Positions 26,840 to 58,969 of a stretch of 64,000 nucleotides of DNA are shown piece after piece. The notes below the pieces were generated by a model, which saw only the letters and a program-made list of their open reading frames with translations, was not told where the DNA came from and made no database searches. Source of the DNA: Candidatus Gastranaerophilales bacterium (GTDB taxonomy: Bacteria > Cyanobacteriota > Vampirovibrionia > Gastranaerophilales > Gastranaerophilaceae); NCBI GenBank assembly GCA_944325515.1, contig CALVAO010000002.1:149091-213090 (forward strand), in the 5' to 3' direction. The translations under genes were made by a program, and so were the position numbers. The number at the start of each line of letters is the position of its first letter. Position 1 is the first letter of the stretch.

Positions 26840-26880
26840 TGCTCTAAAGCATTGTATTTAGTTACATGTCCCGAGGAGAA

Positions 26881-29800
26881 AAAATGTTACAAGAAGCGAC
26901 AAGAGCAATAAATTCGGCATTCAACAATAGTTTTATAAAAAAACTGAGTCAGTATCTTCACGATTGTGTAAGAGAAGAGGTTAAAAGTTCGACCTTCAGA
27001 AACCTTAAGGCTGATAAAGATAATAAATGGATATTTTTACAGGAAAATGACAGCTTGTTTACACAGGGGCTGGAATATATCCGCCTTGAAGGTTCTGACC
27101 CGAAGTTAACAGAGCTTATGATACAGTCTGAAACCAGTCAGAAGGATAAGTACTTAATATACGGTTATATCTTTATTACAGGAAAATCCAAATCGGGCAA
27201 GAAAAACGAGTTCTTAACTCCGCTTCTTTACGCTCCCTGCAGGCTTGAAAGAAACGGGGTGAATATAAACTGCATGCTCACCGATGAGTTTCTTTCTCTG
27301 AATACAGGTGCTCTAACGGCTCTAATGAAAAAGAGTGATGATGAAGATGAAACAGAACAGCTTCTTGAAGGGCTTCTGGATGTTGTTCCTTCTGTTCCTA
27401 TTAATCAGGAGAAGCTTGATATATTTTTAACAACACTGAAATCAATTATTCCGGATATTGACGTGTCACTCAATCCCGCAATGAAAATTGAAGAGGATAA
27501 TATCTCAAAAGATTTTTATTCGGAAAAAATTAACGCAGAAAATATTGACGAAATTATTGAGGAAGAAGAAAACGCTAAGAAAACGCAGATTAAGCTTGAT
27601 AAAATAAGCCTTACAAACCAGTGCGCAATAATTTTAACCAAGCGCCCCGCAGTTACGGCAGGCGTTCTGCACGAGCTTACGCAAATCGCTGAAAAGCCGA
27701 GCGGATTGTACAGAGAAACCGTATTAAACTTGATAAACGAAGAATACACACAGTCAAAGCCGACTGACAGCCAGCAAAAAACACTTGCGGACTTTTTCCC
27801 CGTAACTCCTCTGTCGCTTTCGGACGCCCAGTTAAACGTCATTAAGCATGTAGAAAACGCCCGCCTTGTATCGGTTTTCGGTCCTCCAGGAACCGGTAAA
27901 TCACAGACAATTGTTAACCTCGTTGCTCATCTTATTGCAAACGGGAAAACTGTTCTTGTCGCATCCCGCATGGATAAAGCAGTTGATGTTGTTGCAGAAA
28001 GGCTCAATTCTTTAGGGGCGCCGTTTTTAGCCCTAAGGGCAGGAAGGCTGAATTATCAAAAAGAATTGAGTATGCAGCTTCAAGATCTGCTTGCTGGCAA
28101 AGTCGATTTGGATGAAGGAGCTGAAAATTCTATTCTTTGCGATGTTTCGGATATGGAAAACCTTTTGAAGGCGATTAATGATTTAGAGAAAAAATCCGAA
28201 AAAATAATCAAACTTGAAGGCGAATGGACAGGCGTAAAAGGGCAGATTGACTTAGAAAAGCCGATGCATTCCAACCCGAAATTTATTAAAAATATTCTGA
28301 AAGAAGATGAGATTACAACCGTTGAGAATTCAATCAAGGCTTTATCAGAAAACCTTGAAAAATCCGGCTTCTGGACAGGAATAAAAAACATGTCCGCAAT
28401 CGGGAATTTGAAAAAGATTTTGAAGATTAATAATTTTGATGTGAACAATGAAAACCTTGCGCTTCTCCAGAACGAACTTGAGTTTGCAAAACTGGTTTGC
28501 AAAGCCCGCATGATTGAAACAGAAATTCAAACAACCGGAAATATTCATATTTTATCCGAACAAATCAGAAATATGAAACAGAAGCAGAAACGTCTTGCGA
28601 TTGATATTCTAAAAACAAAGCGCAGACAGGCTCTAAAAGGCTTAATGCAAGACCCTGTAAAACGCCAGCGGCTCTTTGTGCATTCAAAATCACTGGTTGA
28701 GAGGAAGAAAAACCTCCAGAATAGGCTTCTTGAAACCGAGGATTTTAAACCGCTTCTTGAGGCGTTTCCCTGCTGGTGCGTTACAACTTACGCCGTATCC
28801 GGCTCTTTGCCGATGAAACCGGGGTTATTTGATGTCGTAATCATCGATGAAGCTTCTCAATGCGATATTGCAAGCTCTTTCCCGATATTATTCAGAGCTA
28901 AAAAAGCTGTCGTAGTGGGTGATGATAAGCAATTACCGCATCTTTCTTTCTTAGAAAAAGCCAAAGAACAATCGTTTATGTCACAATACGGAATTAATGA
29001 CAGGTATCAGTTAATGTGGCGTTTCAGAACAAACTCAATGTTTGATTTAGCGAATTATTATTCAATGCACCCCGTTCTTTTAGATGAACACTTTAGAAGT
29101 CTGCCTCCGATAATTAATTTCTCAAATAAAGAATTTTACGGCGGAAGAATTAAGGTTATGAGAAGGAACGATAATACGAAAAAAGTTCTTGAAACCGTAG
29201 TTGTACCGGATGGCAAAGTCGATTTTGACGCAACAAGAAATTTACCGGAGATTGAAGCTTTAGTAAAAAGATTATACGAAATCGTCGTTGAAGATGAAAG
29301 AAAAAATCCGGAGAATCCCGTGAGTATCGGTATAATTTCGCCGTTCAGAGCGCAGGTTGAGCAGTTAAAAATCTCTGTTGCGAAGGTGCTGTCTGAACAC
29401 ATGATGGAAAAACACCAGATAGAAATCGGTACAGCGCATACTTTCCAGGGGGATGAAAGAGATATAATCCTTACTTCCTGGGCTTATGCAAACAACAGTT
29501 TTCCGCAGAGCCTTATATTCCTGCAAAAGCCGAATTTGTTTAATGTCGCAATCACAAGAGCGCGTTATCAAGTGATTAATTTTATCTCCAAAAATCCGAG
29601 AGAACTTCCGGAAGGGCTTTTGAGAAGCTATTTAGGTTATGTAGAAGAATATGAAAACAGGTATGCTTTAGTTAATTCAGACGATTTTGACGAAAATATT
29701 TATAAAAACGCATTTGAAAAAGAGGTTGCAGCTGCCTTTAGAGAAATCGGGCATAAAGTAACCTGCGGTGTCGAAATTGCAGGCTTGAGCGTTGATTTGC

Positions 29801-29991
29801 TTGTAGATAACAAGTTTGTAATCGAAATTGACGGGGTCGAAGATAAAACTCCATCAAAAGTTTCAAACATGAAAAAACAGGCAATAATTGAGCGTTCGGG
29901 CTTAAAGGTCGCAAGGATTTCAAAACGCGAATGGCAGTATTCACCAAAAGCATGTATTGATAGGGTAGTTAATTGTTTTGGTGACCTGTGA
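26881..29991 (+). CDS. DUF4011-like N-terminus / Upf1-Dna2-like SF1 helicase (AAA_11/AAA_12) / C-terminal Vsr-DUF559-like PD-(D/E)xK nuclease; Hhe-like single-gene defence candidate
   Basis: gaggag RBS before the ATG at 26881 (track ORF starts at 26866). Walker A GPPGTGKSQT, Walker B VIIDEASQ, VVVGDDKQLP, LDEHFRS, GTAHTFQGDERDII and NVAITRAR. C-terminal FEKEV..A....G..V...V.IAGLSVDLLV....VIEIDG......KKQAIIERSGLKVARISKREW. Confidence 0.75.
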   Translation, partial: KMLQEATRAINSAFNNSFIKKLSQYLHDCVREEVKSSTFRNLKADKDNKWIFLQENDSLFTQGLEYIRLEGSDPKLTELMIQSETSQKDKYLIYGYIFITGKSKSGKKNEFLTPLLYAPCRLERNGVNINCMLTDEFLSLNTGALTALMKKSDDEDETEQLLEGLLDVVPSVPINQEKLDIFLTTLKSIIPDIDVSLNPAMKIEEDNISKDFYSEKINAENIDEIIEEEENAKKTQIKLDKISLTNQCAIILTKRPAVTAGVLHELTQIAEKPSGLYRETVLNLINEEYTQSKPTDSQQKTLADFFPVTPLSLSDAQLNVIKHVENARLVSVFGPPGTGKSQTIVNLVAHLIANGKTVLVASRMDKAVDVVAERLNSLGAPFLALRAGRLNYQKELSMQLQDLLAGKVDLDEGAENSILCDVSDMENLLKAINDLEKKSEKIIKLEGEWTGVKGQIDLEKPMHSNPKFIKNILKEDEITTVENSIKALSENLEKSGFWTGIKNMSAIGNLKKILKINNFDVNNENLALLQNELEFAKLVCKARMIETEIQTTGNIHILSEQIRNMKQKQKRLAIDILKTKRRQALKGLMQDPVKRQRLFVHSKSLVERKKNLQNRLLETEDFKPLLEAFPCWCVTTYAVSGSLPMKPGLFDVVIIDEASQCDIASSFPILFRAKKAVVVGDDKQLPHLSFLEKAKEQSFMSQYGINDRYQLMWRFRTNSMFDLANYYSMHPVLLDEHFRSLPPIINFSNKEFYGGRIKVMRRNDNTKKVLETVVVPDGKVDFDATRNLPEIEALVKRLYEIVVEDERKNPENPVSIGIISPFRAQVEQLKISVAKVLSEHMMEKHQIEIGTAHTFQGDERDIILTSWAYANNSFPQSLIFLQKPNLFNVAITRARYQVINFISKNPRELPEGLLRSYLGYVEEYENRYALVNSDDFDENIYKNAFEKEVAAAFREIGHKVTCGVEIAGLSVDLLVDNKFVIEIDGVEDKTPSKVSNMKKQAIIERSGLKVARISKREWQYSPKACIDRVVNCFGDL

Positions 29992-52025: not shown

Positions 52026-52300
52026 ATGAAGTATTCTTTTGTCAATTTTTTGTTTCGCAGTTGTTAGCGGGAACACTACCGTGTTCGCTTCCTCTCAAAA
52101 AAATCCTCAACGGTTCGGATTTTTTTTCGGCAGAGTCAACTGCGCCACGCACCCATGAAGTATTCTTTTGTCAATTTTTTGTTTCGCAGTTGTTAGCGGG
52201 AACACTACCGTGTTCGCTTCCTCTCAAAAAAATCCTCAACGGTTCGGATTTTTTTCGGCAGAGTCAACTGCGCCACGCACCCATATAGTATTCTTTTGTC
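52026..52300. repeat. tandem ~129-bp repeat (2 full units plus a partial one) upstream of tRNA-Lys, each unit carrying a rearranged 25-nt copy of the tRNA 5' part
   Basis: The junction sequence cacgcacccat(g/a)(a/t)agtattcttttgtcaa recurs with 'at' at 52026, 52155 and 52283 (periods 129 and 128). The tRNA fragments agagtcaactgcgccacgcacccat lie at 52132..52156 and 52260..52284. Confidence 0.85.
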
Positions 52301-52615
52301 AAACCCCAGCCGGTGATTATCTTACTCCAGCTGCGTCAAAATTATTGTAACACAAATTTTTTTTATAGCAAAATTTTTTTGTTGATTTTTTAAAATATTA
52401 TCATAACCGCAAATATCCCCCCCCCAAAAAAAATTTATCTATAGTATTAAATGAAATAGAACAAGAAAGTTTTTTACAACTAATGTTAATTTTGTAAATG
52501 ACCTTGAACAATTATCACTGGGAAAAGGACACAACTGTAAATGGACTTTATCTTTATCAACAAATAAAAAAATGAAGTTCTATAGCAAAAAATTTTTTTA
52601 TGTGATTTTATATTA

Positions 52616-53845: not shown

Positions 53846-53867
53846 ACCTCTCCGGAATTGGAGAGGT
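53846..53867. terminator. bidirectional terminator-like hairpin after the wHTH gene
   Basis: acctctcc-ggaatt-ggagaggt, flanked by aaaaa on the left and ttttc on the right. Confidence 0.6.
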
Positions 53868-54238: not shown

Positions 54239-57200
54239 ATGTTATTAAATTTTATTAAAGTCGATTTTCGAACTAAAGTATTAGTTGAAAAATATCTGGA
54301 GCTTATTTCTGATGGGGTAAAACCATCAGAAATACTGGTTCTTGTCCAAAATTCAACTTTAAAAAAACAATTTGTCAATAAAATCTTAGAAAATATAAAG
54401 ATTAATGCAATAGAAAAGTTAAATGTTCATTCATTTTTTTCAATTGTATATAATACACTTGTTGATAATTGGTGTTTTATAGAAAATTCTATTCCAGGGG
54501 ATAAACGTTTCATTCTCCCGAACCTTGTCGGGCTGGAGGTTTCGCAGTTTTTGTTAAAAGATATACTAAAACAAGTTCCGGTAAAAGGTTATAATTCAAA
54601 AAAATCTTTGCTGCATCAGATTTTCAGAAGGTATGCTTTAATTGTACAAAATCATCTGACAAATGAGGATGTAAAAGAGCGGTCTAAGATTTTAAAAGAA
54701 TCGTTTGCAGATGATGCGGAAATCGTTATAAAAAGACTTTTGGGAGTGACTTTAAAATCCAGAAGTTTAGATTACTTGAGACAGACTTTGATATTTAATT
54801 ATGTTTATAAAAATACGGATTATTTCAAGAATATTAAATATCTGCTTGTTGATGATGCGGATGAGATGACTCCGGTTTGTTTTGATTTTATTACGTATTT
54901 AAGACCGCAATTAAAAGATTGGGTAATATGTTTTGACTCGCTCGGTTCATCAAGATGCGGATATTTGAGTGCGGATACTTCGATTGAGTATAAGTTAAAA
55001 AAACTTTTTAATGAAGAAGTAATTTCACAACAAGCGCAAAATTACCCTCCCCTTGTGGGAGCGGATTTGCGGACGGACTGGGGTAAATATGAAAGTCCGG
55101 ATAGCGAGCGAATGGAGCCGGCTAAGCCGTATAGGCTTGAAGGCGACACTCCGGGAGCGTGGAGCAAATCCAAGACAGGGTCGAAATCTTTGATTTCGGG
55201 GAGGGGTCTGAATGAATACGGAGTAAGTGCGCCTAACAAACAAGAAAATTGTTGGGAATATGGAATAAGTTCTCAAATTAAAGATTTGACCCCTCCCCCT
55301 AACCCCCTCCCACAAGGGGCGGGGGGATGCGCAAGAATGATTAAGGCTAAACATTTTTATACGCAAGAAGCACTTAATTATTCAAAAGAATTAAGACAAA
55401 ATCAAACTCCGGCAGAAGAAATTTTGTGGTATTACCTTAGAAAAAAACAATTAGGCGGATTAAAGTTCAGAAGACAGGAAGCATTCGGGAATTATATACT
55501 TGATTTTGTGTGCTACGAGAAAAAACTAGTTATTGAACTTGATGGCGGCGGACATCTTGAGACTGAACAAACAGAACATGATAAATCAAGAGATAAGTTT
55601 ATCATGAATAACGGATTTAGGGTTTTAAGAGTTTTTAATAATGATGTTTTTAATAATATTGAAGGAGTAATTGAAGAAATATTACGACTGATTGAACAAT
55701 CTCCTCTCTTGCAACAAGCGCAGAATTACCCTCCCCTTGTGGGAGGGTCGAAATCTTTGATTTCGGGGAGGGGTCTGAATGAATGCGGAGTGAGTACGCC
55801 CAACAAGAAAGAATATTGTTGGGAATTGGGAACAAGTTCTCAAACTAACGATTTGACCCCTCCCCCTAGCCCCCTCCCACAAGGGGCGGGGGAATGCGCA
55901 AGATTTGAAGCAGATACACAAAGAGATGGGGGATGCGCGCAAGAATTTTTATTTTTCAAGCAGGGGGAAATTATATTCTCAAACATTCTTGAAAACAAAA
56001 AAGAAAGATTGGAAAATTTTACATTAACTTCACTCTCCAAACGCGCTGAAATTCTGGATTACACGGTTGAAAAGATACAAAACTTATTCAAAAAAGATGT
56101 TCTTCCGAAAGACATTGCAATCATCACACCGCTTCAAGATGACATGCTGCATTTTGCATTAAAAGAAAACCTGAAATGTAATCTTCTGTTCCTCTCCGGA
56201 AGTGAAAAACTCGTTGATAATCCGCTTGTTAAATCGAGTTTGAATATTCTGAAACTCATGCTCAATCTTGAAATTACGGAGATGGATTTAAGAGTAATTC
56301 TTGCGGACTTTGCAGGAATCCCGCTAAAATATTGTAATAAAATTTTAGAATACTATAAATTAAATAAAACTCTTCCCGCAGAATCCGAATTCTACAGCGA
56401 AAAGTACAAAAAATTCCATGACGCGTTTGAAAACGTAAGAAATAAAAACGAAAAACTTTCAAAAAAAGTTTTTGACATGTTCTACAGCGGAATAGATTTT
56501 GTCGAAGAGAATAAAATTAATAAATTTAATTTCTTTATAAAACAATTAAAAGATTTTGAAAATGTTTTAGGCTGGGAAAAAGTTATTGAAAGAGCAGAAG
56601 ATATAATTGTTCAGATTGAAAATTCTATTATTGCGGAAAACCCGAGTACAACTTTAGAAATCAGCGATAGTGATTTGGTCGTGGCAACTCCGCAGAAAAT
56701 TATTGATAACAAAATTTCTACCCGCTATCAGTTCTGGCTTGACGTATCACACAGCGACTGGGTAAAAACAGATACAGGACCTTTATATAATGCATGGGTC
56801 ATGCAGGCGGATTGGACAAAGGATGAATACACGGTCGAAGATGATATATTTTTATCCAAACAAAAAACTGCCAGAATCTTAAGGAAGCTTCTTCTCTTAG
56901 CCGGTGAACATATCTGGGCATGCTCAAGTTTATTTGATCCATCCGGAGTCGAGAATTTAGGCGGAATAGAAGAGTATTTAGCCGGCGGGGGAGATGAACC
57001 GGTTGAAGAAAAGAAGTCATTTAGAATAATTCCCCGTGATGACCAGAAACCCGTATTAGATTACCGGAAAGGCTCGATGGCGATTTCTGCCGTACCTGGT
57101 GCAGGGAAAACCACAATACTGCTTGCTCTTATAATAAAGCTTATGGACAGAGGCGTAAATCCCGAGAATATCTATGTTCTTACCTATATGGATTCTGCAG

Positions 57201-58969
57201 CAAGGAATTTCAGAGAAAGAATTAAAAACATGTGCCCGAATACTAACAGGCTTCCTAATATAAGTACAATTCACGGACTTGCTCTAAAAATAATAAAAGA
57301 AAACTCCAATTTCGAAAGATTAAATCTCTCCTCCGATTTTGATATTTGCGATGACACGCAGAGAATGCGGATTATAAAAGCGGTTGGAGGAAAATCTACA
57401 AAGACCGAGGTTGAAGAGTTTGACAGAGCCATATCTGTTTTAAAACTGCAGGAAGGAAATATTGATACAAAATCAAGCGACAAAAAGACAGAAAAATTTA
57501 AGACATTCTATAAAGAATATCAAGCTGAACTTAGAGAAGCAAATTTGATTGATTATGATGATATTTTAATCATGTCGGTTAAGCTGCTTGAGAATAATCC
57601 CGATATTCTTAAATATTACCAAAATCAATGCGAATATATTATAGAAGATGAAGCTCAGGATTCATCAGGCGTACAGCAAAGATTAATCGGTCTTTTGAGC
57701 GGAAAACATAAAAACTTAATCCGCTGCGGAGATATTAATCAAGCAATTACGACAACTTTTTCAAACGCTGATGTGGAAGGGTTTAGAGCTTTTATTCATA
57801 ATGCCGATAAAACCGTAGAGATGAACCATTCCCAGAGATGCACGCAGGAGGTTATGGATTTAGCGAACAAGCTTGTTGATTTCGGAGATAAAAATCTTCC
57901 AAAAGCTTTCTTTAAAAGTTATATGCACGGAGTAAGCGGAAAGAATCCGGAAAGTAAGAATGCAATTTATTCCCGTGTTTTTGAGAATGTCTTTGCGGAA
58001 AGAAATTTTGTATTAAAAGAAATAAAAAATATTCTTACAAAAAATAAAGATGCAACTATCGGAATACTTTTAAGGAATAATTATCAAGTTAACAGCTGGG
58101 CAGAATTTATCAACAACGCCGGATTAAAAAGTATTACAAGAAATGATTCTTTAAGCCAGAAAGGTGTTTTTAATACGATTTTTTCTATTCTTAAATTTAT
58201 TCAAAATCCGTATGATAATGAAGTTTTAATATCAACTTATGAAACTCTTTCTGATTTAGGTTTTTATAAACAGCGCTTGCAGCTCGAAATAAGAGCATCC
58301 GAAATTCCGTTTATTCAAAAAGACGGAGATGATATTGAATCACAAGATTTATCGCAATTTTTGTGGGATATGCAGTACTGGCTTAATTCTTCTACGCTTC
58401 CTTTAGAAGAACTTGTTATAAAAATAGGATTATTTTATTATACCAGCGACATTGAAAAATCAAATGTTTATTTAATCGCAACACTTGTACAACGGCTGAA
58501 TGCGCAGGGGAAATTTGATCTCACGCTCCAGCGTCTGGAAGAATTATCTAAAAAGCCGACTTTGAGCGGATTTAAATTTTTCTCGGATGAAGAAGATAAA
58601 GACGCCATGCGCGGTAAAGTACAGATAATGACACTCCACAAATCCAAAGGCGATGAGTTTGAATATGTATTTTTGCCGGAGATGGCAGAAAAAAATCTTT
58701 CAATAGATGTTGATAAGTCAAAATTAAAACCTTCTTCAATATTTATGGAAGAAGTAAAATCATTTAATCCAAATTATAAACGCAAATCAGAGCTCGAACT
58801 CAAGCAATTTAACTCGGAGGAGAGCTTGAGACTCTTATATGTTGCAATTACACGTGCACAAAAGAAATTATATATAACGACTTCCGCAAAAGCAAAAGGC
58901 TGGAGTAACAAAGAAACAACTCAAGAGCCAAGCATAATTTTTAATAATATATTACGGCAGGATATTTAA
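54239..58969 (+). CDS. two-module UvrD/Rep-family helicase (degenerate N-terminal module plus active C-terminal module) carrying a 918-bp in-frame repeat/DUF559 insertion
   Basis: Module 1 has ILVLVQNSTLKKQF and LLVDDADEMTP but no Walker A. Module 2 has AVPGAGKTT, YIIEDEAQD, IRCGDINQAI, NHSQRC, IMTLHKSKGDEFEYVFLP and LLYVAITRAQKKLYIT. It is a single open frame of 1576 codons. Confidence 0.75.
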   Translation: MLLNFIKVDFRTKVLVEKYLELISDGVKPSEILVLVQNSTLKKQFVNKILENIKINAIEKLNVHSFFSIVYNTLVDNWCFIENSIPGDKRFILPNLVGLEVSQFLLKDILKQVPVKGYNSKKSLLHQIFRRYALIVQNHLTNEDVKERSKILKESFADDAEIVIKRLLGVTLKSRSLDYLRQTLIFNYVYKNTDYFKNIKYLLVDDADEMTPVCFDFITYLRPQLKDWVICFDSLGSSRCGYLSADTSIEYKLKKLFNEEVISQQAQNYPPLVGADLRTDWGKYESPDSERMEPAKPYRLEGDTPGAWSKSKTGSKSLISGRGLNEYGVSAPNKQENCWEYGISSQIKDLTPPPNPLPQGAGGCARMIKAKHFYTQEALNYSKELRQNQTPAEEILWYYLRKKQLGGLKFRRQEAFGNYILDFVCYEKKLVIELDGGGHLETEQTEHDKSRDKFIMNNGFRVLRVFNNDVFNNIEGVIEEILRLIEQSPLLQQAQNYPPLVGGSKSLISGRGLNECGVSTPNKKEYCWELGTSSQTNDLTPPPSPLPQGAGECARFEADTQRDGGCAQEFLFFKQGEIIFSNILENKKERLENFTLTSLSKRAEILDYTVEKIQNLFKKDVLPKDIAIITPLQDDMLHFALKENLKCNLLFLSGSEKLVDNPLVKSSLNILKLMLNLEITEMDLRVILADFAGIPLKYCNKILEYYKLNKTLPAESEFYSEKYKKFHDAFENVRNKNEKLSKKVFDMFYSGIDFVEENKINKFNFFIKQLKDFENVLGWEKVIERAEDIIVQIENSIIAENPSTTLEISDSDLVVATPQKIIDNKISTRYQFWLDVSHSDWVKTDTGPLYNAWVMQADWTKDEYTVEDDIFLSKQKTARILRKLLLLAGEHIWACSSLFDPSGVENLGGIEEYLAGGGDEPVEEKKSFRIIPRDDQKPVLDYRKGSMAISAVPGAGKTTILLALIIKLMDRGVNPENIYVLTYMDSAARNFRERIKNMCPNTNRLPNISTIHGLALKIIKENSNFERLNLSSDFDICDDTQRMRIIKAVGGKSTKTEVEEFDRAISVLKLQEGNIDTKSSDKKTEKFKTFYKEYQAELREANLIDYDDILIMSVKLLENNPDILKYYQNQCEYIIEDEAQDSSGVQQRLIGLLSGKHKNLIRCGDINQAITTTFSNADVEGFRAFIHNADKTVEMNHSQRCTQEVMDLANKLVDFGDKNLPKAFFKSYMHGVSGKNPESKNAIYSRVFENVFAERNFVLKEIKNILTKNKDATIGILLRNNYQVNSWAEFINNAGLKSITRNDSLSQKGVFNTIFSILKFIQNPYDNEVLISTYETLSDLGFYKQRLQLEIRASEIPFIQKDGDDIESQDLSQFLWDMQYWLNSSTLPLEELVIKIGLFYYTSDIEKSNVYLIATLVQRLNAQGKFDLTLQRLEELSKKPTLSGFKFFSDEEDKDAMRGKVQIMTLHKSKGDEFEYVFLPEMAEKNLSIDVDKSKLKPSSIFMEEVKSFNPNYKRKSELELKQFNSEESLRLLYVAITRAQKKLYITTSAKAKGWSNKETTQEPSIIFNNILRQDI
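55028..55336 (+). repeat. palindromic repeat unit L (192 bp plus 117-bp nested insert)
   Basis: Aligns with unit R end to end (caacaagcgca ... atgcgcaaga) apart from the nested block. Translated as QQAQNYPPLVG...DLTPPPNPLPQGAGGCAR. Confidence 0.8.
55062..55178 (+). repeat. nested 117-bp mini-element with 8-bp terminal inverted repeats
   Basis: Present in L and absent from R. Its ends are ggagcGGATTTGC ... ggagcaaatcc. Boundaries are ambiguous by 1-2 nt. Confidence 0.65.
55337..55711 (+). other. DUF559 (PF04480-type, Vsr-like) endonuclease module with its own ATG but no stop, in frame with the host helicase
   Basis: ELRQNQTPAEEILWYYLRKKQLGGLKFRRQEAFGNYILDFVCYEKKLVIELDGGGH...D..RD.F....GFRVLRVFNNDV matches the DUF559 consensus closely. 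Confidence 0.8.
55712..55903 (+). repeat. palindromic repeat unit R (192 bp)
   Basis: About 15 substitutions relative to unit L, concentrated in the centre. The ends ccccttgtgggaggg and ccctcccacaagggg are reverse complements. Confidence 0.8.

What the first reader, a model, noticed from the sequence alone, without database searches (positions are those of the whole stretch)
55028..55945. In-frame composite insertion in a helicase gene: a DUF559 endonuclease module bracketed by two 192-bp palindromic (MITE-like) units
ORF 54239..58969 is AT-rich helicase sequence except for about 918 bp of conspicuously GC-rich DNA. The structure, read directly, has four parts. Unit L is 55028..55336. A complete DUF559 (Vsr-like fold) module starts at its own ATG at 55337. 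Unit R is 55712..55903. A 42-bp tail repeats the last ~18 nt of the units (gggggatgcgc[gc]aagaat at 55927..55945). Once a 117-bp nested block is removed from L, L and R align end to end with about 15 substitutions in 192 nt, mostly central. Each unit is itself a long imperfect palindrome: 5' ccccttgtgggaggg...ggggaggggtc is the reverse complement of 3' gacccctcccc...ccctcccacaagggg, which gives terminal inverted repeats. All module lengths are multiples of three (192, 117, 375, 192, 42) and none has a stop in the host frame. The helicase frame is therefore preserved, and both units translate to the same peptide (QQAQNYPPLVG..SKSLISGRGLNE.GVS.PNK.E.CWE.G.SSQ..DLTPPP.PLPQGAG.CAR). In-frame, translated palindromic insertions are known for Rickettsia palindromic elements. 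Here the repeats are physically coupled to an endonuclease gene, which suggests an autonomous DUF559 element plus non-autonomous derivatives. No mobility mechanism is established for DUF559 genes. An alternative reading is that the DUF559 ATG has no stop of its own, so a DUF559-helicase fusion could be made. That would mimic the helicase plus Vsr-like nuclease architecture at 26881..29991.
Basis: partly seen in the sequence, partly recalled or inferred. Interest (0 to 1): 0.85.

Follow-up and report, generated by a model that had tools for sequence, protein, structure and literature searches.

The report
Nuclease-plus-palindrome cassette translated inside a helicase
A gut bacterium's helicase gene carries a removable, in-frame insert made of a small nuclease gene (DUF559) flanked by GC-rich palindromic repeats of the old "BoxC/triplex-motif" type, and the same nuclease-plus-repeat pairing turns up across bacteria, pointing to a possible partner enzyme for repeats unexplained since the 1990s.

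Summary
ORF 54239..58969 (Gastranaerophilales, UvrD-family) carries a 918-bp stop-free in-frame insert: unit L (with a nested 117-bp block), a DUF559 module (Pfam E 1e-37), unit R and a 42-bp tail.

It is an insertion. 39 of 120 orthologue clusters have an empty site. Four helicase clades are polymorphic for DUF559, units only or remnants.

The "MITE-like units" are inverted pairs of a known repeat class, BoxC/PIT/triplex motif (Holder 2015), reported as always intergenic in E. coli K-12, with no function assigned.

What looks new is the coupling to DUF559. In 80 unrelated metagenomic DUF559 loci such hairpins are 18-fold enriched within 200 bp of the gene (81% of loci versus 6% of control ORFs). 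E. coli ycjD has one too. DUF559-plus-arm modules also sit in frame in many other proteins.

DUF559 is under purifying selection (dN/dS 0.05-0.1). The arms are neutral as protein but conserved as DNA, with 41-48-nt exact matches across species and reading frames.

Best reading: a selfish or recombinogenic nuclease-plus-repeat cassette tolerated as a disordered-linker/folded-domain insert. How it moves is inferred, not shown. Main rival: a domesticated nuclease domain.

The parts
54239..58969 (+). Host gene, 1576 aa. The N-terminal half is a degenerate SF1-helicase-like region. The C-terminal half is a UvrD/PcrA-type helicase (aa 936-1549).
   Evidence: ORF; Pfam; PDB and NCBIfam matches of the insert-free orthologue P0112. 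dN/dS is 0-0.12 on both sides of the insert between insert-bearing alleles, so it is not a pseudogene.
55028..55336 (+). Unit L: an inverted pair of BoxC/PIT/triplex-motif arms around a core of about 60 nt, interrupted by the nested block. It is translated as aa 264-366.
   Evidence: AF2 pLDDT is about 22 over aa 261-385, i.e. predicted disordered.
55045..55063 (+). 5' arm hairpin of unit L (CCCTCCCC TTGT GGGAGCG). The arm continues after the nested block at 55177-55206 (side hairpin plus G-tract).
   Evidence: Hairpin scan; register with unit R from repeat family D1.
55062..55178 (+). Nested 117-bp block with its own terminal inverted repeat (GGATTTGC..GCAAATCC). It is a separate dispersed repeat.
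   Evidence: It lies in unit R instead in the sister allele L003 (97% identical). Copies occur at L038 (two), L118 and L042 (Muribaculaceae).
55290..55324 (-). 3' arm of unit L. Read on the minus strand it is a complete triplex motif: CCCC TTGT GGGAGGGGG TTA GGGGGAGGGG.
   Evidence: Pattern match. Exact matches of 41-44 nt in L004, L070 and L076.
55337..55711 (+). DUF559 (Vsr-fold PD-(D/E)XK) nuclease module, aa 367-491, in frame with the host and without its own stop.
   Evidence: PF04480 E 1.4e-37. PDB 3hrl E 6.5e-23. All 14 invariant family residues of alignment A2 are present, including D56, E67, D69 and H73. dN/dS is 0.05-0.10. AF2 gives a folded alpha/beta domain with pLDDT 67-84.
55712..55903 (+). 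Unit R: an uninterrupted inverted pair of triplex-motif arms. The 5' arm is 55729-55773 and includes an 18-nt side hairpin. The 3' arm is 55857-55891.
   Evidence: The 5' arm gives a sub-threshold whalefall-1 (RF01762) match of 27.2 bits. Exact matches of 46-48 nt occur at intergenic loci of other Gastranaerophilales genomes.
55904..55945 (+). Tail: a spacer plus a partial repeat (55917-55938) of the last 22 nt of the 3' arm. The final CAAGAA may be host sequence.
   Evidence: Repeat family D2. The HydF-borne cassette L205 shows the same terminal duplications at both ends. Comparison with the empty site of L002.

Best explanation
What it is. The insert is a composite cassette. It consists of a DUF559 (Vsr-fold) nuclease gene embedded among inverted pairs of BoxC/PIT/triplex-motif GC-rich repeats. 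It sits in frame at a permissive junction between two helicase-like lobes of a UvrD-family protein.

Shown:
1. It is an insertion that is present, partly present or absent among close relatives.
2. Alleles interconvert by recombination and gene conversion between the repeated arms. For example, the single-unit allele L001 is exactly the product of a unit L x unit R crossover in an L003-like allele.
3. The host gene stays under purifying selection.
4. The nuclease is conserved as a protein.
5. The arms are conserved as DNA, not as protein. They are predicted to be disordered linkers.
6. The same nuclease-plus-arm layout (hairpin plus G-tract upstream, C-tract plus hairpin downstream) is the rule for this DUF559 subfamily across phyla, and it recurs in frame inside many unrelated genes.

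Inferred:
- The whole insert is translated with the helicase. That is how the nuclease is expressed where it has no start or stop of its own.
- Only stop-free insertions whose length is a multiple of three survive in such genes.

Proposed mechanism (not shown):
- The DUF559 nuclease nicks or cuts at, or next to, its own arm structures (hairpin, cruciform or triplex, often with a central mismatch).
- Recombinational repair then copies, homogenises, duplicates or deletes arm-bounded segments.
- This keeps cassette and arms in circulation, by analogy with RAYT-REPIN and with homing endonucleases.
For: - Insertion and polymorphism: 39 of 120 orthologue clusters have a 1-aa site. Others carry 8-421 aa built from the same arm peptides, with or without DUF559. 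Four helicase clades each contain both DUF559-bearing and DUF559-free alleles.
- Recombinant alleles and a nested block that sits in the other unit of the sister allele.
- Rates between the window and L003: helicase DNA 96-97% identical, DUF559 99%, units 82-91%.
- Selection: DUF559 dN/dS 0.05-0.10; units 0.82, with substitutions spread 3/6/6 over codon positions; host 0-0.12.
- DNA-level conservation of the arms: exact matches of 41-48 nt to other species whose genes have dS above 1. One is a helicase-borne copy read in a different frame (PLPQGAG versus PSHKGRG). Exact matches of 30-32 nt occur in proteobacterial MAGs.
- The arms remain 52% GC in a 30% GC gene, while DUF559 is 31% GC.
- Generality from the repeat side: the arm 19-mer occurs in more than 119 stretches across many phyla. 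All 6 DUF559 genes in those loci lie within 77 bp of it.
- Generality from the gene side, in 80 metagenomic DUF559 loci: 3.54 versus 0.20 hairpins per kb; 50 of 62 loci versus 2 of 32 control ORFs; a conserved layout with covarying stems.
- E. coli ycjD has a triplex motif downstream.
- In-frame embedding elsewhere: 28 of 147 representative proteins, with the host Pfam domains split. Hosts include HsdS, HsdR, type ISP and IIG enzymes, PriA, HydF, IspE, TsaB, PrmC and an M14 peptidase. HrpA-like and M14 hosts appear in the independent metagenome sample.
- AF2: units pLDDT about 22, DUF559 67-84.
- Literature: triplex-motif loci are hypervariable and have no assigned function or partner gene. 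DUF559 proteins are enriched among predicted inversion targets. A DUF559 protein causes DNA damage in Caulobacter.
Against: - No cleavage, nicking or mobility was tested.
- DUF559 divergence tracks host divergence, so there is no sign of recent horizontal movement of the nuclease at this site.
- Most arm copies (113 of 119 loci) have no DUF559 within 8 kb.
- 38% of complete E. coli genomes lack ycjD at its locus. The few such genomes listed still gave 2-5 matches to the 788-bp query. What those matches are was not examined.
- No secure target-site duplication was found.
- In the window the nuclease lies between two arm pairs rather than inside one, so the local arrangement is a derived mosaic.
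- DUF559 relatives are rare in phages (3 of 50,697 records) and uncommon on plasmids (59 of 72,556), so the route between genomes is unknown.
- Only 64 kb of this genome could be read, and it holds no other copy.
- The AF2 model is of low overall confidence (mean pLDDT 52.6).
Confidence: 0.55

Rival explanations
1. Domesticated domain. The DUF559 module has been co-opted as the nuclease of a helicase-nuclease, as in AddAB or in Hhe/ProA-type defence helicases. The repeats now serve only as flexible linkers.
For: - Strong purifying selection on the module over a divergence as deep as the host's.
- No own start or stop in several lineages.
- The host protein has no recognisable nuclease domain of its own.
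- Helicase plus DUF559-like REase fusions are common; one is in this window at 26866..29991.
- Many embedded copies sit in DNA-handling hosts: HsdS, HsdR, type ISP and IIG enzymes, PriA, HrpA.
Against: - Most orthologues lack it.
- Alleles 96-98% identical in the helicase core differ in presence or absence.
- The same module with the same arms is embedded in IspE, TsaB, HydF, PrmC, an M14 peptidase and a TIM-barrel enzyme, where a nuclease has no obvious role.
- The arms are conserved at the DNA level across reading frames, which a mere linker does not need.
Confidence: 0.22
2. No enzymatic link. The triplex-motif repeats are intrinsically unstable, recombinogenic DNA (or expression signals of the DUF559 gene). 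They accumulate at, or travel with, DUF559 genes without being their substrate. The helicase site is simply a tolerated hot spot.
For: - Triplex-motif loci are hypervariable in E. coli irrespective of neighbouring genes, and polymerase blockage has been shown in vitro.
- Hairpins lie mostly upstream of the DUF559 start, at 10-50 nt (46 upstream versus 22 downstream of 62 loci). That could reflect a regulatory role.
- Arms greatly outnumber DUF559 genes.
Against: - The association is very strong and specific: 81% versus 6% of ORFs in the same loci.
- It holds across phyla with covarying stems and a bipartite layout on both sides of the gene.
- Earlier work found no promoter or terminator activity for these repeats.
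Confidence: 0.18
3. Spliced element: the insert is removed as an intron or an intein, so the helicase is made without it.
For: Vsr-fold homing endonucleases do live in group I introns and inteins (the EDxHD family). The arms could bring the flanks together.
Against: - No intron family matched in Rfam, even at E up to 10.
- No intein (Hint) domain is found in Pfam.
- The frame is kept open through GC-rich units that have stops in four of six frames. Every variant recovered here as a full-length protein is in frame, although out-of-frame alleles would not have been retrieved. Keeping a frame open is unnecessary for a spliced element.
Confidence: 0.03
4. Artefact or pseudogene: a chimeric assembly or a dead gene.
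For: The source is probably a metagenome-assembled genome. GC-rich repeats can mislead assemblers.
Against: - The same 306-aa insert is present in four other protein clusters from separate NCBI and ENA contigs (P0001-P0004), plus many variants.
- The ORF is intact.
- dN/dS is 0-0.12 on both flanks.
Confidence: 0.02

Closest known systems
BoxC / PIT elements / G/C-rich intrastrand triplex motif 'TMECO' (Holder et al. 2015, PMC4666352)
   Same: The three-block pattern is the same: C-stem, loop, G-stem, short loop, G-stem. The TTA/CTA second loop, the occurrence as inverted pairs, the dispersed copies in many phyla and the hypervariable loci also match.
   Different: - In E. coli K-12 these repeats were reported as always intergenic, and no consistent function of flanking genes or link to mobile elements was found.
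- Here they lie inside a coding sequence, in frame.
- The 5' arms carry an 18-nt side hairpin in the second loop.
- They flank a nuclease gene.
Rickettsia palindromic elements (RPE): translated palindromic inserts in genes (from my own knowledge, Ogata et al. 2000)
   Same: Palindromic repeats inserted in frame into functional genes. They are stop-free and tolerated as extra peptide segments.
   Different: The sequence family and the hosts are unrelated. RPEs have no associated enzyme gene, whereas here a nuclease ORF travels with the repeats.
REP/REPIN with RAYT (from my own knowledge, Nunvar 2010; Bertels and Rainey 2011)
   Same: One enzyme gene is flanked by inverted hairpin repeats that are also dispersed, in excess, as doublets through the genome. 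Repeat type matches within a locus (weak).
   Different: The enzyme is a Vsr-fold PD-(D/E)XK nuclease, not an HUH Y1 transposase. The repeats are purine/pyrimidine mirror (triplex-type) hairpins. Coding-sequence residence is common.
EDxHD (Vsr-fold) homing endonucleases, I-Bth0305I (PMC3239194)
   Same: Vsr-like catalytic fold, presence/absence polymorphism at a fixed site in DNA-metabolism genes, and a selfish logic.
   Different: There are no NUMOD or HTH DNA-binding modules and no intron or intein. Host function is preserved by translating the insert rather than by splicing it out.
E. coli YcjD and Caulobacter VsrA (DUF559 proteins)
   Same: The same Pfam family. NCBIfam PRK09767 (a DUF559 equivalog model) matches at E 1.7e-23, below its cut-off. 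YcjD lies next to a triplex motif in a strain-variable locus. VsrA causes DNA damage in vivo.
   Different: Those are free-standing genes. No link to repeats has been reported for them.
whalefall-1 RNA motif (Rfam RF01762)
   Same: The same two-hairpin-plus-G-tract design as the 5' arm. Sub-threshold matches in the window (27.2 bits) and next to a metagenomic DUF559 (33.5 bits; gathering score 37).
   Different: It is described as a candidate non-coding RNA known only from whale-fall metagenomes. Membership is not met at the curated threshold.

Membership tests
BoxC/PIT/triplex-motif repeats | Pattern: C-rich stem, N3-6, G-rich stem, short loop, second G-rich stem. | tested here: met
   Three matches in the window and 0 expected. 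Two arms have a 3-nt second loop (TTA, CTA). The 5' arm has an 18-nt hairpin there, which is a variant.
BoxC/PIT/triplex-motif repeats | Many dispersed copies, often as inverted pairs. | tested here: met
   More than 119 stretches in many phyla, several genomes with multiple contigs, and doublets 60-130 nt apart. Other Gastranaerophilales loci also carry them. Within this genome only 64 kb could be checked, and it has no other copy.
BoxC/PIT/triplex-motif repeats | Intergenic location (as reported for E. coli K-12). | tested here: not met
   All four arms lie inside ORF 54239..58969, in frame.
BoxC/PIT/triplex-motif repeats | Forms an intrastrand triplex. | not testable with these tools
   Only hairpin folding was computed.
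MITE | Terminal inverted repeats. | tested here: met
MITE | Target-site duplication. | tested here: inconclusive
   CAAGAA lies on both sides in L001 and L003 and once in the empty site of L002. The flanks are too diverged to be sure.
MITE | Derived from an IS element with a transposase. | tested here: not met
   The only ORF associated with the units is DUF559. Pfam finds no transposase domain in the insert.
Homing endonuclease gene (EDxHD/Vsr-like) | Vsr-fold catalytic domain with conserved acidic and histidine residues. | tested here: met
   PF04480, PDB 3hrl, invariant D56, E67, D69 and H73.
Homing endonuclease gene (EDxHD/Vsr-like) | Extra sequence-specific DNA-binding modules (NUMOD/HTH). 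| tested here: not met
   The module is 125 aa and holds only DUF559.
Homing endonuclease gene (EDxHD/Vsr-like) | Housed in a self-splicing intron or an intein. | tested here: not met
   Rfam and Pfam.
Homing endonuclease gene (EDxHD/Vsr-like) | Cleaves the empty allele and is copied into it. | not testable with these tools
   Presence/absence polymorphism exists, but DUF559 divergence tracks the host's.
REP/REPIN-RAYT | The enzyme is a RAYT (Y1 HUH transposase). | tested here: not met
   The enzyme is DUF559.
REP/REPIN-RAYT | The enzyme gene is flanked by the same hairpin repeats that are dispersed as doublets. | tested here: met
   This is an analogy, not membership.
Intein | Hint splicing domain with conserved junction residues. 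| tested here: not met
   No such Pfam hit. The flanks are translated repeats.
whalefall-1 RNA (RF01762) | Score at or above the Rfam gathering threshold (37 bits). | tested here: not met
   27.2 and 33.5 bits.

The most novel reading that the evidence does not exclude
DUF559/YcjD-type Vsr-fold nucleases are the missing partner enzymes of BoxC/PIT/triplex-motif repeats. Together they would form a widespread, unrecognised class of selfish cassette, functionally parallel to RAYT-REPIN but with a different enzyme and a different DNA structure. Under this reading the cassette spreads or persists through nuclease-triggered recombination at its own arms. It can also colonise essential coding sequences by being translated as 'disordered linker - folded nuclease - disordered linker'.
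Probability: 0.35. Interest if true: 0.85.

Novelty: new variant of a known kind. Interest (0 to 1): 0.72.

Why it matters
BoxC/PIT/triplex-motif repeats have been known since the early 1990s. They number thousands of copies across bacteria and mark hypervariable loci. No function or partner gene has been assigned to them. DUF559 is a very large family: 26,078 representative proteins at E below 1e-3. Its role is essentially unknown.

A tight, cross-phylum physical coupling between the two gives each a concrete, testable hypothesis: does YcjD cut BoxC? E. coli K-12 carries both.

The cassette also preserves host genes in an unusual way. The insert is read through as protein rather than spliced out. 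It recurs in restriction-modification subunits, helicases and housekeeping enzymes. That matters for three things: genome annotation (spurious 'fusion' proteins and odd low-complexity extensions such as PLPQGEG), protein-domain evolution, and the interpretation of strain variation in gut Melainabacteria.

Tried and rejected
- Exact look-up of the window protein found no record, so the source contig and the rest of the genome could not be read.
- A protein search with the unit-R peptide found nothing: 1 candidate and no hit. The word index does not handle this low-complexity peptide. In-frame units in other proteins could therefore be seen only through the DUF559 hits.
- A search with DUF559 plus flanks returned only 50-65% identical free-standing homologues and, oddly, not the helicase orthologues.
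- Rfam showed no intron, ribozyme or riboswitch. Only sub-threshold whalefall-1 matches appeared.
- Ungapped flanking inverted-repeat scoring was too strict: 23 of 60 loci scored above shuffles. It was replaced by a hairpin-density test.
- I tried to use E. coli to define a clean empty site for ycjD. In the ycjD-less genome examined (O157:H7) the neighbouring site holds a TetR regulator and an RND efflux adaptor gene, matching the published finding that ycjD and the eefRABCD operon are mutually exclusive at this site. No precise junction could be drawn.
- A target-site duplication could not be established.
- Literature searches for the arm sequence, arm peptides, DUF559, ycjD and triplex/BoxC terms found no paper linking DUF559 to these repeats. 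The library covers only open-access papers and bioRxiv.
- Rejected: that 26866..29991 is a recent paralogue of the module.
- Rejected: that the hairpin at 53847-53866 is an arm. It is an ordinary terminator-like stem followed by a T-run.
Full report
**1. The observation**

The ORF 54239..58969 (+) is open for 1576 aa. Pfam places a UvrD-type helicase only in aa 936-1549 and a complete DUF559 at aa 379-485 (E 8e-36). The 125-aa module alone scores E 1.4e-37.

The insert 55028..55945 has four parts: unit L (309 bp), DUF559 (375 bp), unit R (192 bp) and a tail (42 bp). L and R align end to end once a 117-bp block (55062..55178) is removed. They differ at 15 positions. Each unit is a strong imperfect palindrome, with DNA fold z of -8.1 and -5.5. 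The tail repeats the last 22 nt of the units.

The arm core CCCTCCCACAAGGGG occurs four times in the 64-kb window, all at this locus, with none expected by chance.

The units are 52% GC in a gene of about 30% GC. The DUF559 module itself is 31% GC.

The units are stop-free only in the host frame and its palindromic mirror frame. They have 2-10 stops in the other four frames. Only 0.5% and 2.2% of composition-matched shuffles are stop-free.

**2. It is an insertion, and the site is polymorphic**

The closest relatives are Gastranaerophilales (Melainabacteria) proteins. Anchoring on the conserved flanks gave these states among 120 orthologue clusters:
- 39 have one residue at the site (protein length 1267-1275 aa).
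- Others carry 8-421 aa built from the same arm-encoded peptides (PLVGES.., TPPPSPLPQGAGE, PSHKGRG, SPHPNPLLKGEG), with or without DUF559.

On a tree of the insert-free helicase, four clades each contain both DUF559-bearing and DUF559-free alleles. The window's own clade is 96-98% identical in that core.

At the DNA level:
- The single-unit allele L001 equals the 5' part of unit L plus the 3' part of unit R of the L003 allele. That is the product of a direct-repeat crossover that removes DUF559.
- The nested block sits in unit R in L003 and in unit L in the window.
- The window's unit L is a patchwork of L-type and R-type segments, which indicates gene conversion.

Between the window and L003 the helicase DNA is 96-97% identical, DUF559 99%, and the units only 82-91%.

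The host gene is alive. dN/dS is 0-0.12 on both sides of the insert between insert-bearing alleles.

**3. What is conserved, and at which level**

DUF559 copies carried by this helicase in different clades (window, L003, L004, L026) give dN/dS of 0.05-0.10, with saturated synonymous sites. All 14 invariant residues of the DUF559 alignment are present. The nearest solved structure is 3hrl (E 6.5e-23).

In several clades the module has no ATG (..LKARHFY..) and never a stop of its own. It can therefore be made only as part of the helicase polypeptide.

The units behave the opposite way. dN/dS is 0.82 and substitutions are spread 3/6/6 over codon positions. Yet stretches of 41-48 nt are identical to arms in other species whose genes have dS above 1. 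One of these is a helicase-borne copy read in another frame (PLPQGAG in the window, PSHKGRG in L004). Others lie at intergenic sites. Exact matches of 30-32 nt occur in proteobacterial MAGs. The arms are therefore maintained as DNA (or RNA) structure, or are kept homogeneous by exchange. They are not maintained as protein.

An AlphaFold model of aa 1-930 is of low overall confidence (mean pLDDT 52.6). It shows pLDDT of about 22 for both units and 67-84 for a folded alpha/beta DUF559 domain.

The insertion falls between the Walker-B-like segment (LLVDDADE) and an AAA_12-like segment of the degenerate N-terminal helicase-like half.

**4. What the units are**

Each arm has three blocks: a C-rich stem, a 4-nt loop, a G-rich stem, a second loop and a second G-rich tract. 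This is the published pattern of BoxC / PIT / 'TMECO' intrastrand triplex motifs (5'-CCCTCNCCC N3-6 GGGNGAGGG N3 GGGNGAGGG). It includes the TTA second loop of 'type A' and the occurrence as closely spaced inverted pairs.

The 5' arms carry an extra 18-nt hairpin in the second loop. This gives sub-threshold matches to Rfam whalefall-1 (27.2 and 33.5 bits, against a gathering score of 37).

Holder et al. (PMC4666352) report the following:
- 3,610 copies of TMECO in 262 proteobacterial genomes, and large numbers of G/C-rich triplex motifs in cyanobacteria.
- Hypervariable flanks.
- An exclusively intergenic location in E. coli K-12.
- No link to mobile elements and no consistent function of flanking genes.

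The words 'endonuclease' and 'ycjD' do not occur in their text.

No transposase is associated with it. A target-site duplication (candidate CAAGAA) could not be secured.

**5. The coupling to DUF559 is general**

They came from Alphaproteobacteria, Nitrospirota, Bacteroidota, Omnitrophota, Planctomycetota, Gastranaerophilales and others. Six of the 119 loci contain a DUF559 gene, and in all six it lies within 77 bp of the arm.

*From the gene side.* I collected 80 DUF559 loci from metagenomes using a protein pattern alone.
- Pyrimidine-run/purine-run hairpins occur at 3.54 per kb within 200 bp of the domain, against 0.20 per kb elsewhere.
- 50 of 62 loci with both flanks have at least one, against 2 of 32 control ORFs in the same loci.
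- The layout is constant: hairpin plus G-tract (..GTTAGGGTGAGGGG) 10-50 nt upstream, and C-tract plus hairpin downstream. The stems covary: CCTCTCC/GGAGAGG, CCTCCCC/GGGGAGG, CTTCCCCC/GGGGGAAG, TCCCCC/GGGGGA.
- Hairpins further away in the same locus tend to be of the same type: 23 of 37, against 4.7 expected. One locus dominates this result.

Free-standing DUF559 ORFs from many phyla carry N- and C-terminal extensions reading PLPQGEG, SPLVGE, PSHQGRG or PPIKGG. These are translated arms.

E. coli K-12 ycjD has a type-A triplex motif about 160 nt downstream, a partial one over its stop codon, and a duplicated 3' gene end. The ycjD locus is itself strain-variable. It is present in 3,375 of 5,426 complete genomes. 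In the other phylogroups the eefRABCD operon occupies the site instead.

**6. In-frame residence in other genes**

An exhaustive profile-free search found 26,078 representative proteins at E below 1e-3. Among the 147 best representatives:
- 28 have DUF559 embedded with more than 100 aa on both sides.
- 36 more have more than 100 aa on one side.

Arm peptides flank the domain, and the host's Pfam domains are split. The hosts are HsdS (many clusters), HsdR, type ISP and IIG restriction-modification enzymes, PriA, HydF, IspE, TsaB, PrmC, an M14 peptidase, a TIM-barrel enzyme, and an EPSP synthase-Nudix junction.

In the unselected metagenome sample the fraction is lower, about 4 of 80. It includes an HrpA-like helicase and the M14 peptidase. 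Clustering by full length inflates the first figure.

The HydF case (L205) shows the canonical order, 5' arm - DUF559 - 3' arm. It lies inside an outer arm pair, with duplications of about 22 nt at both ends that resemble the window's tail.

In the window the nuclease lies between two complete arm pairs. This is a derived mosaic of the same parts.

**7. Mechanism**

Shown:
- The insert is gained or lost, and reshuffled, by recombination between arms.
- The nuclease is kept functional.
- The arms are kept as DNA.
- The host gene stays functional.

Inferred: read-through translation is what expresses the nuclease and what filters insertions to stop-free multiples of three.

Proposed: the nuclease acts on its own arm structures, and repair spreads or homogenises them (RAYT-REPIN-like or homing-like).

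In favour of a role in DNA breakage:
- A DUF559 protein causes SOS-inducing damage in Caulobacter.
- Vsr-fold enzymes include true homing endonucleases.
- DUF559 proteins are enriched among predicted inversion targets (odds ratio 14).

Against recent mobility here:
- DUF559 divergence parallels that of the helicase.
- Most arms have no nuclease nearby.
- Relatives are rare in phages and plasmids.

The main rival is domestication as the nuclease of a helicase-nuclease. It is favoured by long-term purifying selection without an own start or stop. It is disfavoured by presence/absence among near-identical alleles and by the same module in metabolic enzymes.

**8. Novelty and verdict**

The parts are known: BoxC/PIT/triplex motifs, DUF559, and translated palindromic inserts as in Rickettsia. 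In the searchable literature I found no report of two things. The first is the tight cross-phylum coupling of DUF559 to these repeats. The second is their joint residence, in frame, inside diverse coding genes.

I rate it a new variant of a known kind (a nuclease-associated palindromic repeat element), with interest 0.72. The finding makes a long-standing question directly testable in E. coli K-12: what are BoxC/PIT repeats, and what does DUF559 do?

Noticed in passing
window 55062-55178; L038 5373-5467 and 5858-5955; L118 7268-7350; L042 106-188: The 117-bp nested block is its own dispersed palindromic repeat (ends GGATTTGC..GCAAATCC; conserved core GTCCGGATAGCGA ... CGTGGAGCAAATCCAAGACAG). 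It occurs next to arms at intergenic sites in other Gastranaerophilales genomes. A 72% identical copy occurs in a Muribaculaceae (Bacteroidota) MAG. It has no Rfam match.
   Followed up: partly
window 26866-29991 (+): A 1041-aa SF1 helicase (AAA_11/AAA_12) with a C-terminal REase_MTES_1575 nuclease. Its best NCBIfam matches are the anti-phage proteins ProA and Hhe, below their cut-offs. It is probably a defence gene and is only distantly related to the DUF559 module.
   Followed up: partly
P0243, P0244, P0252, P0253, P0257, P0270, P0271, P0274, P0277, P0278, P0285, P0287, P0290 and others: Type I restriction-modification specificity subunits (HsdS) are a recurrent host. DUF559 plus repeat peptides are inserted in frame in the central conserved region between the two target-recognition domains, in many distinct clusters. 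Whether this alters specificity or subunit assembly is unknown.
   Followed up: no
L206 (E. coli K-12 NC_000913.3 1351040-1351830); L207: The last ~40 nt of the ycjD coding sequence are repeated about 100 nt downstream, between a partial and a complete triplex motif. That looks like a scar of arm-mediated rearrangement. ycjD and the eefRABCD efflux operon are mutually exclusive occupants of the fabI-sapF site (PMC12817139).
   Followed up: partly
window 55726-55775; L125 998-1050: The Rfam family whalefall-1 (candidate sRNA, known only from whale-fall metagenomes) has the same architecture as the 5' arm, and it matches next to a metagenomic DUF559. The 'RNA motif' may be a member of this DNA repeat class.
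   Followed up: partly
L004 150-420; L001 400-640; L118 7200-7600; L038 5250-6050: Intergenic mosaics of several different GC-rich hairpin modules in AT-rich Gastranaerophilales genomes. They include arms, the nested block and other CCCTC..GAGGG hairpins, and are reminiscent of enterobacterial BIMEs.
   Followed up: no
window 52061-52350 (+): Two overlapping ORFs translate to a repeated peptide (..LAGTLPCSLPLKKILNGSDFF.. twice). This indicates a direct DNA repeat of roughly 130-140 bp just upstream of the locus. It was not examined.
   Followed up: no
window 53847-53866: A perfect hairpin, CCTCTCC GGAATT GGAGAGG, flanked by an A-run and a T-run between two minus-strand ORFs. It is an ordinary bidirectional terminator-like site, not a triplex-motif arm.
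   Followed up: yes
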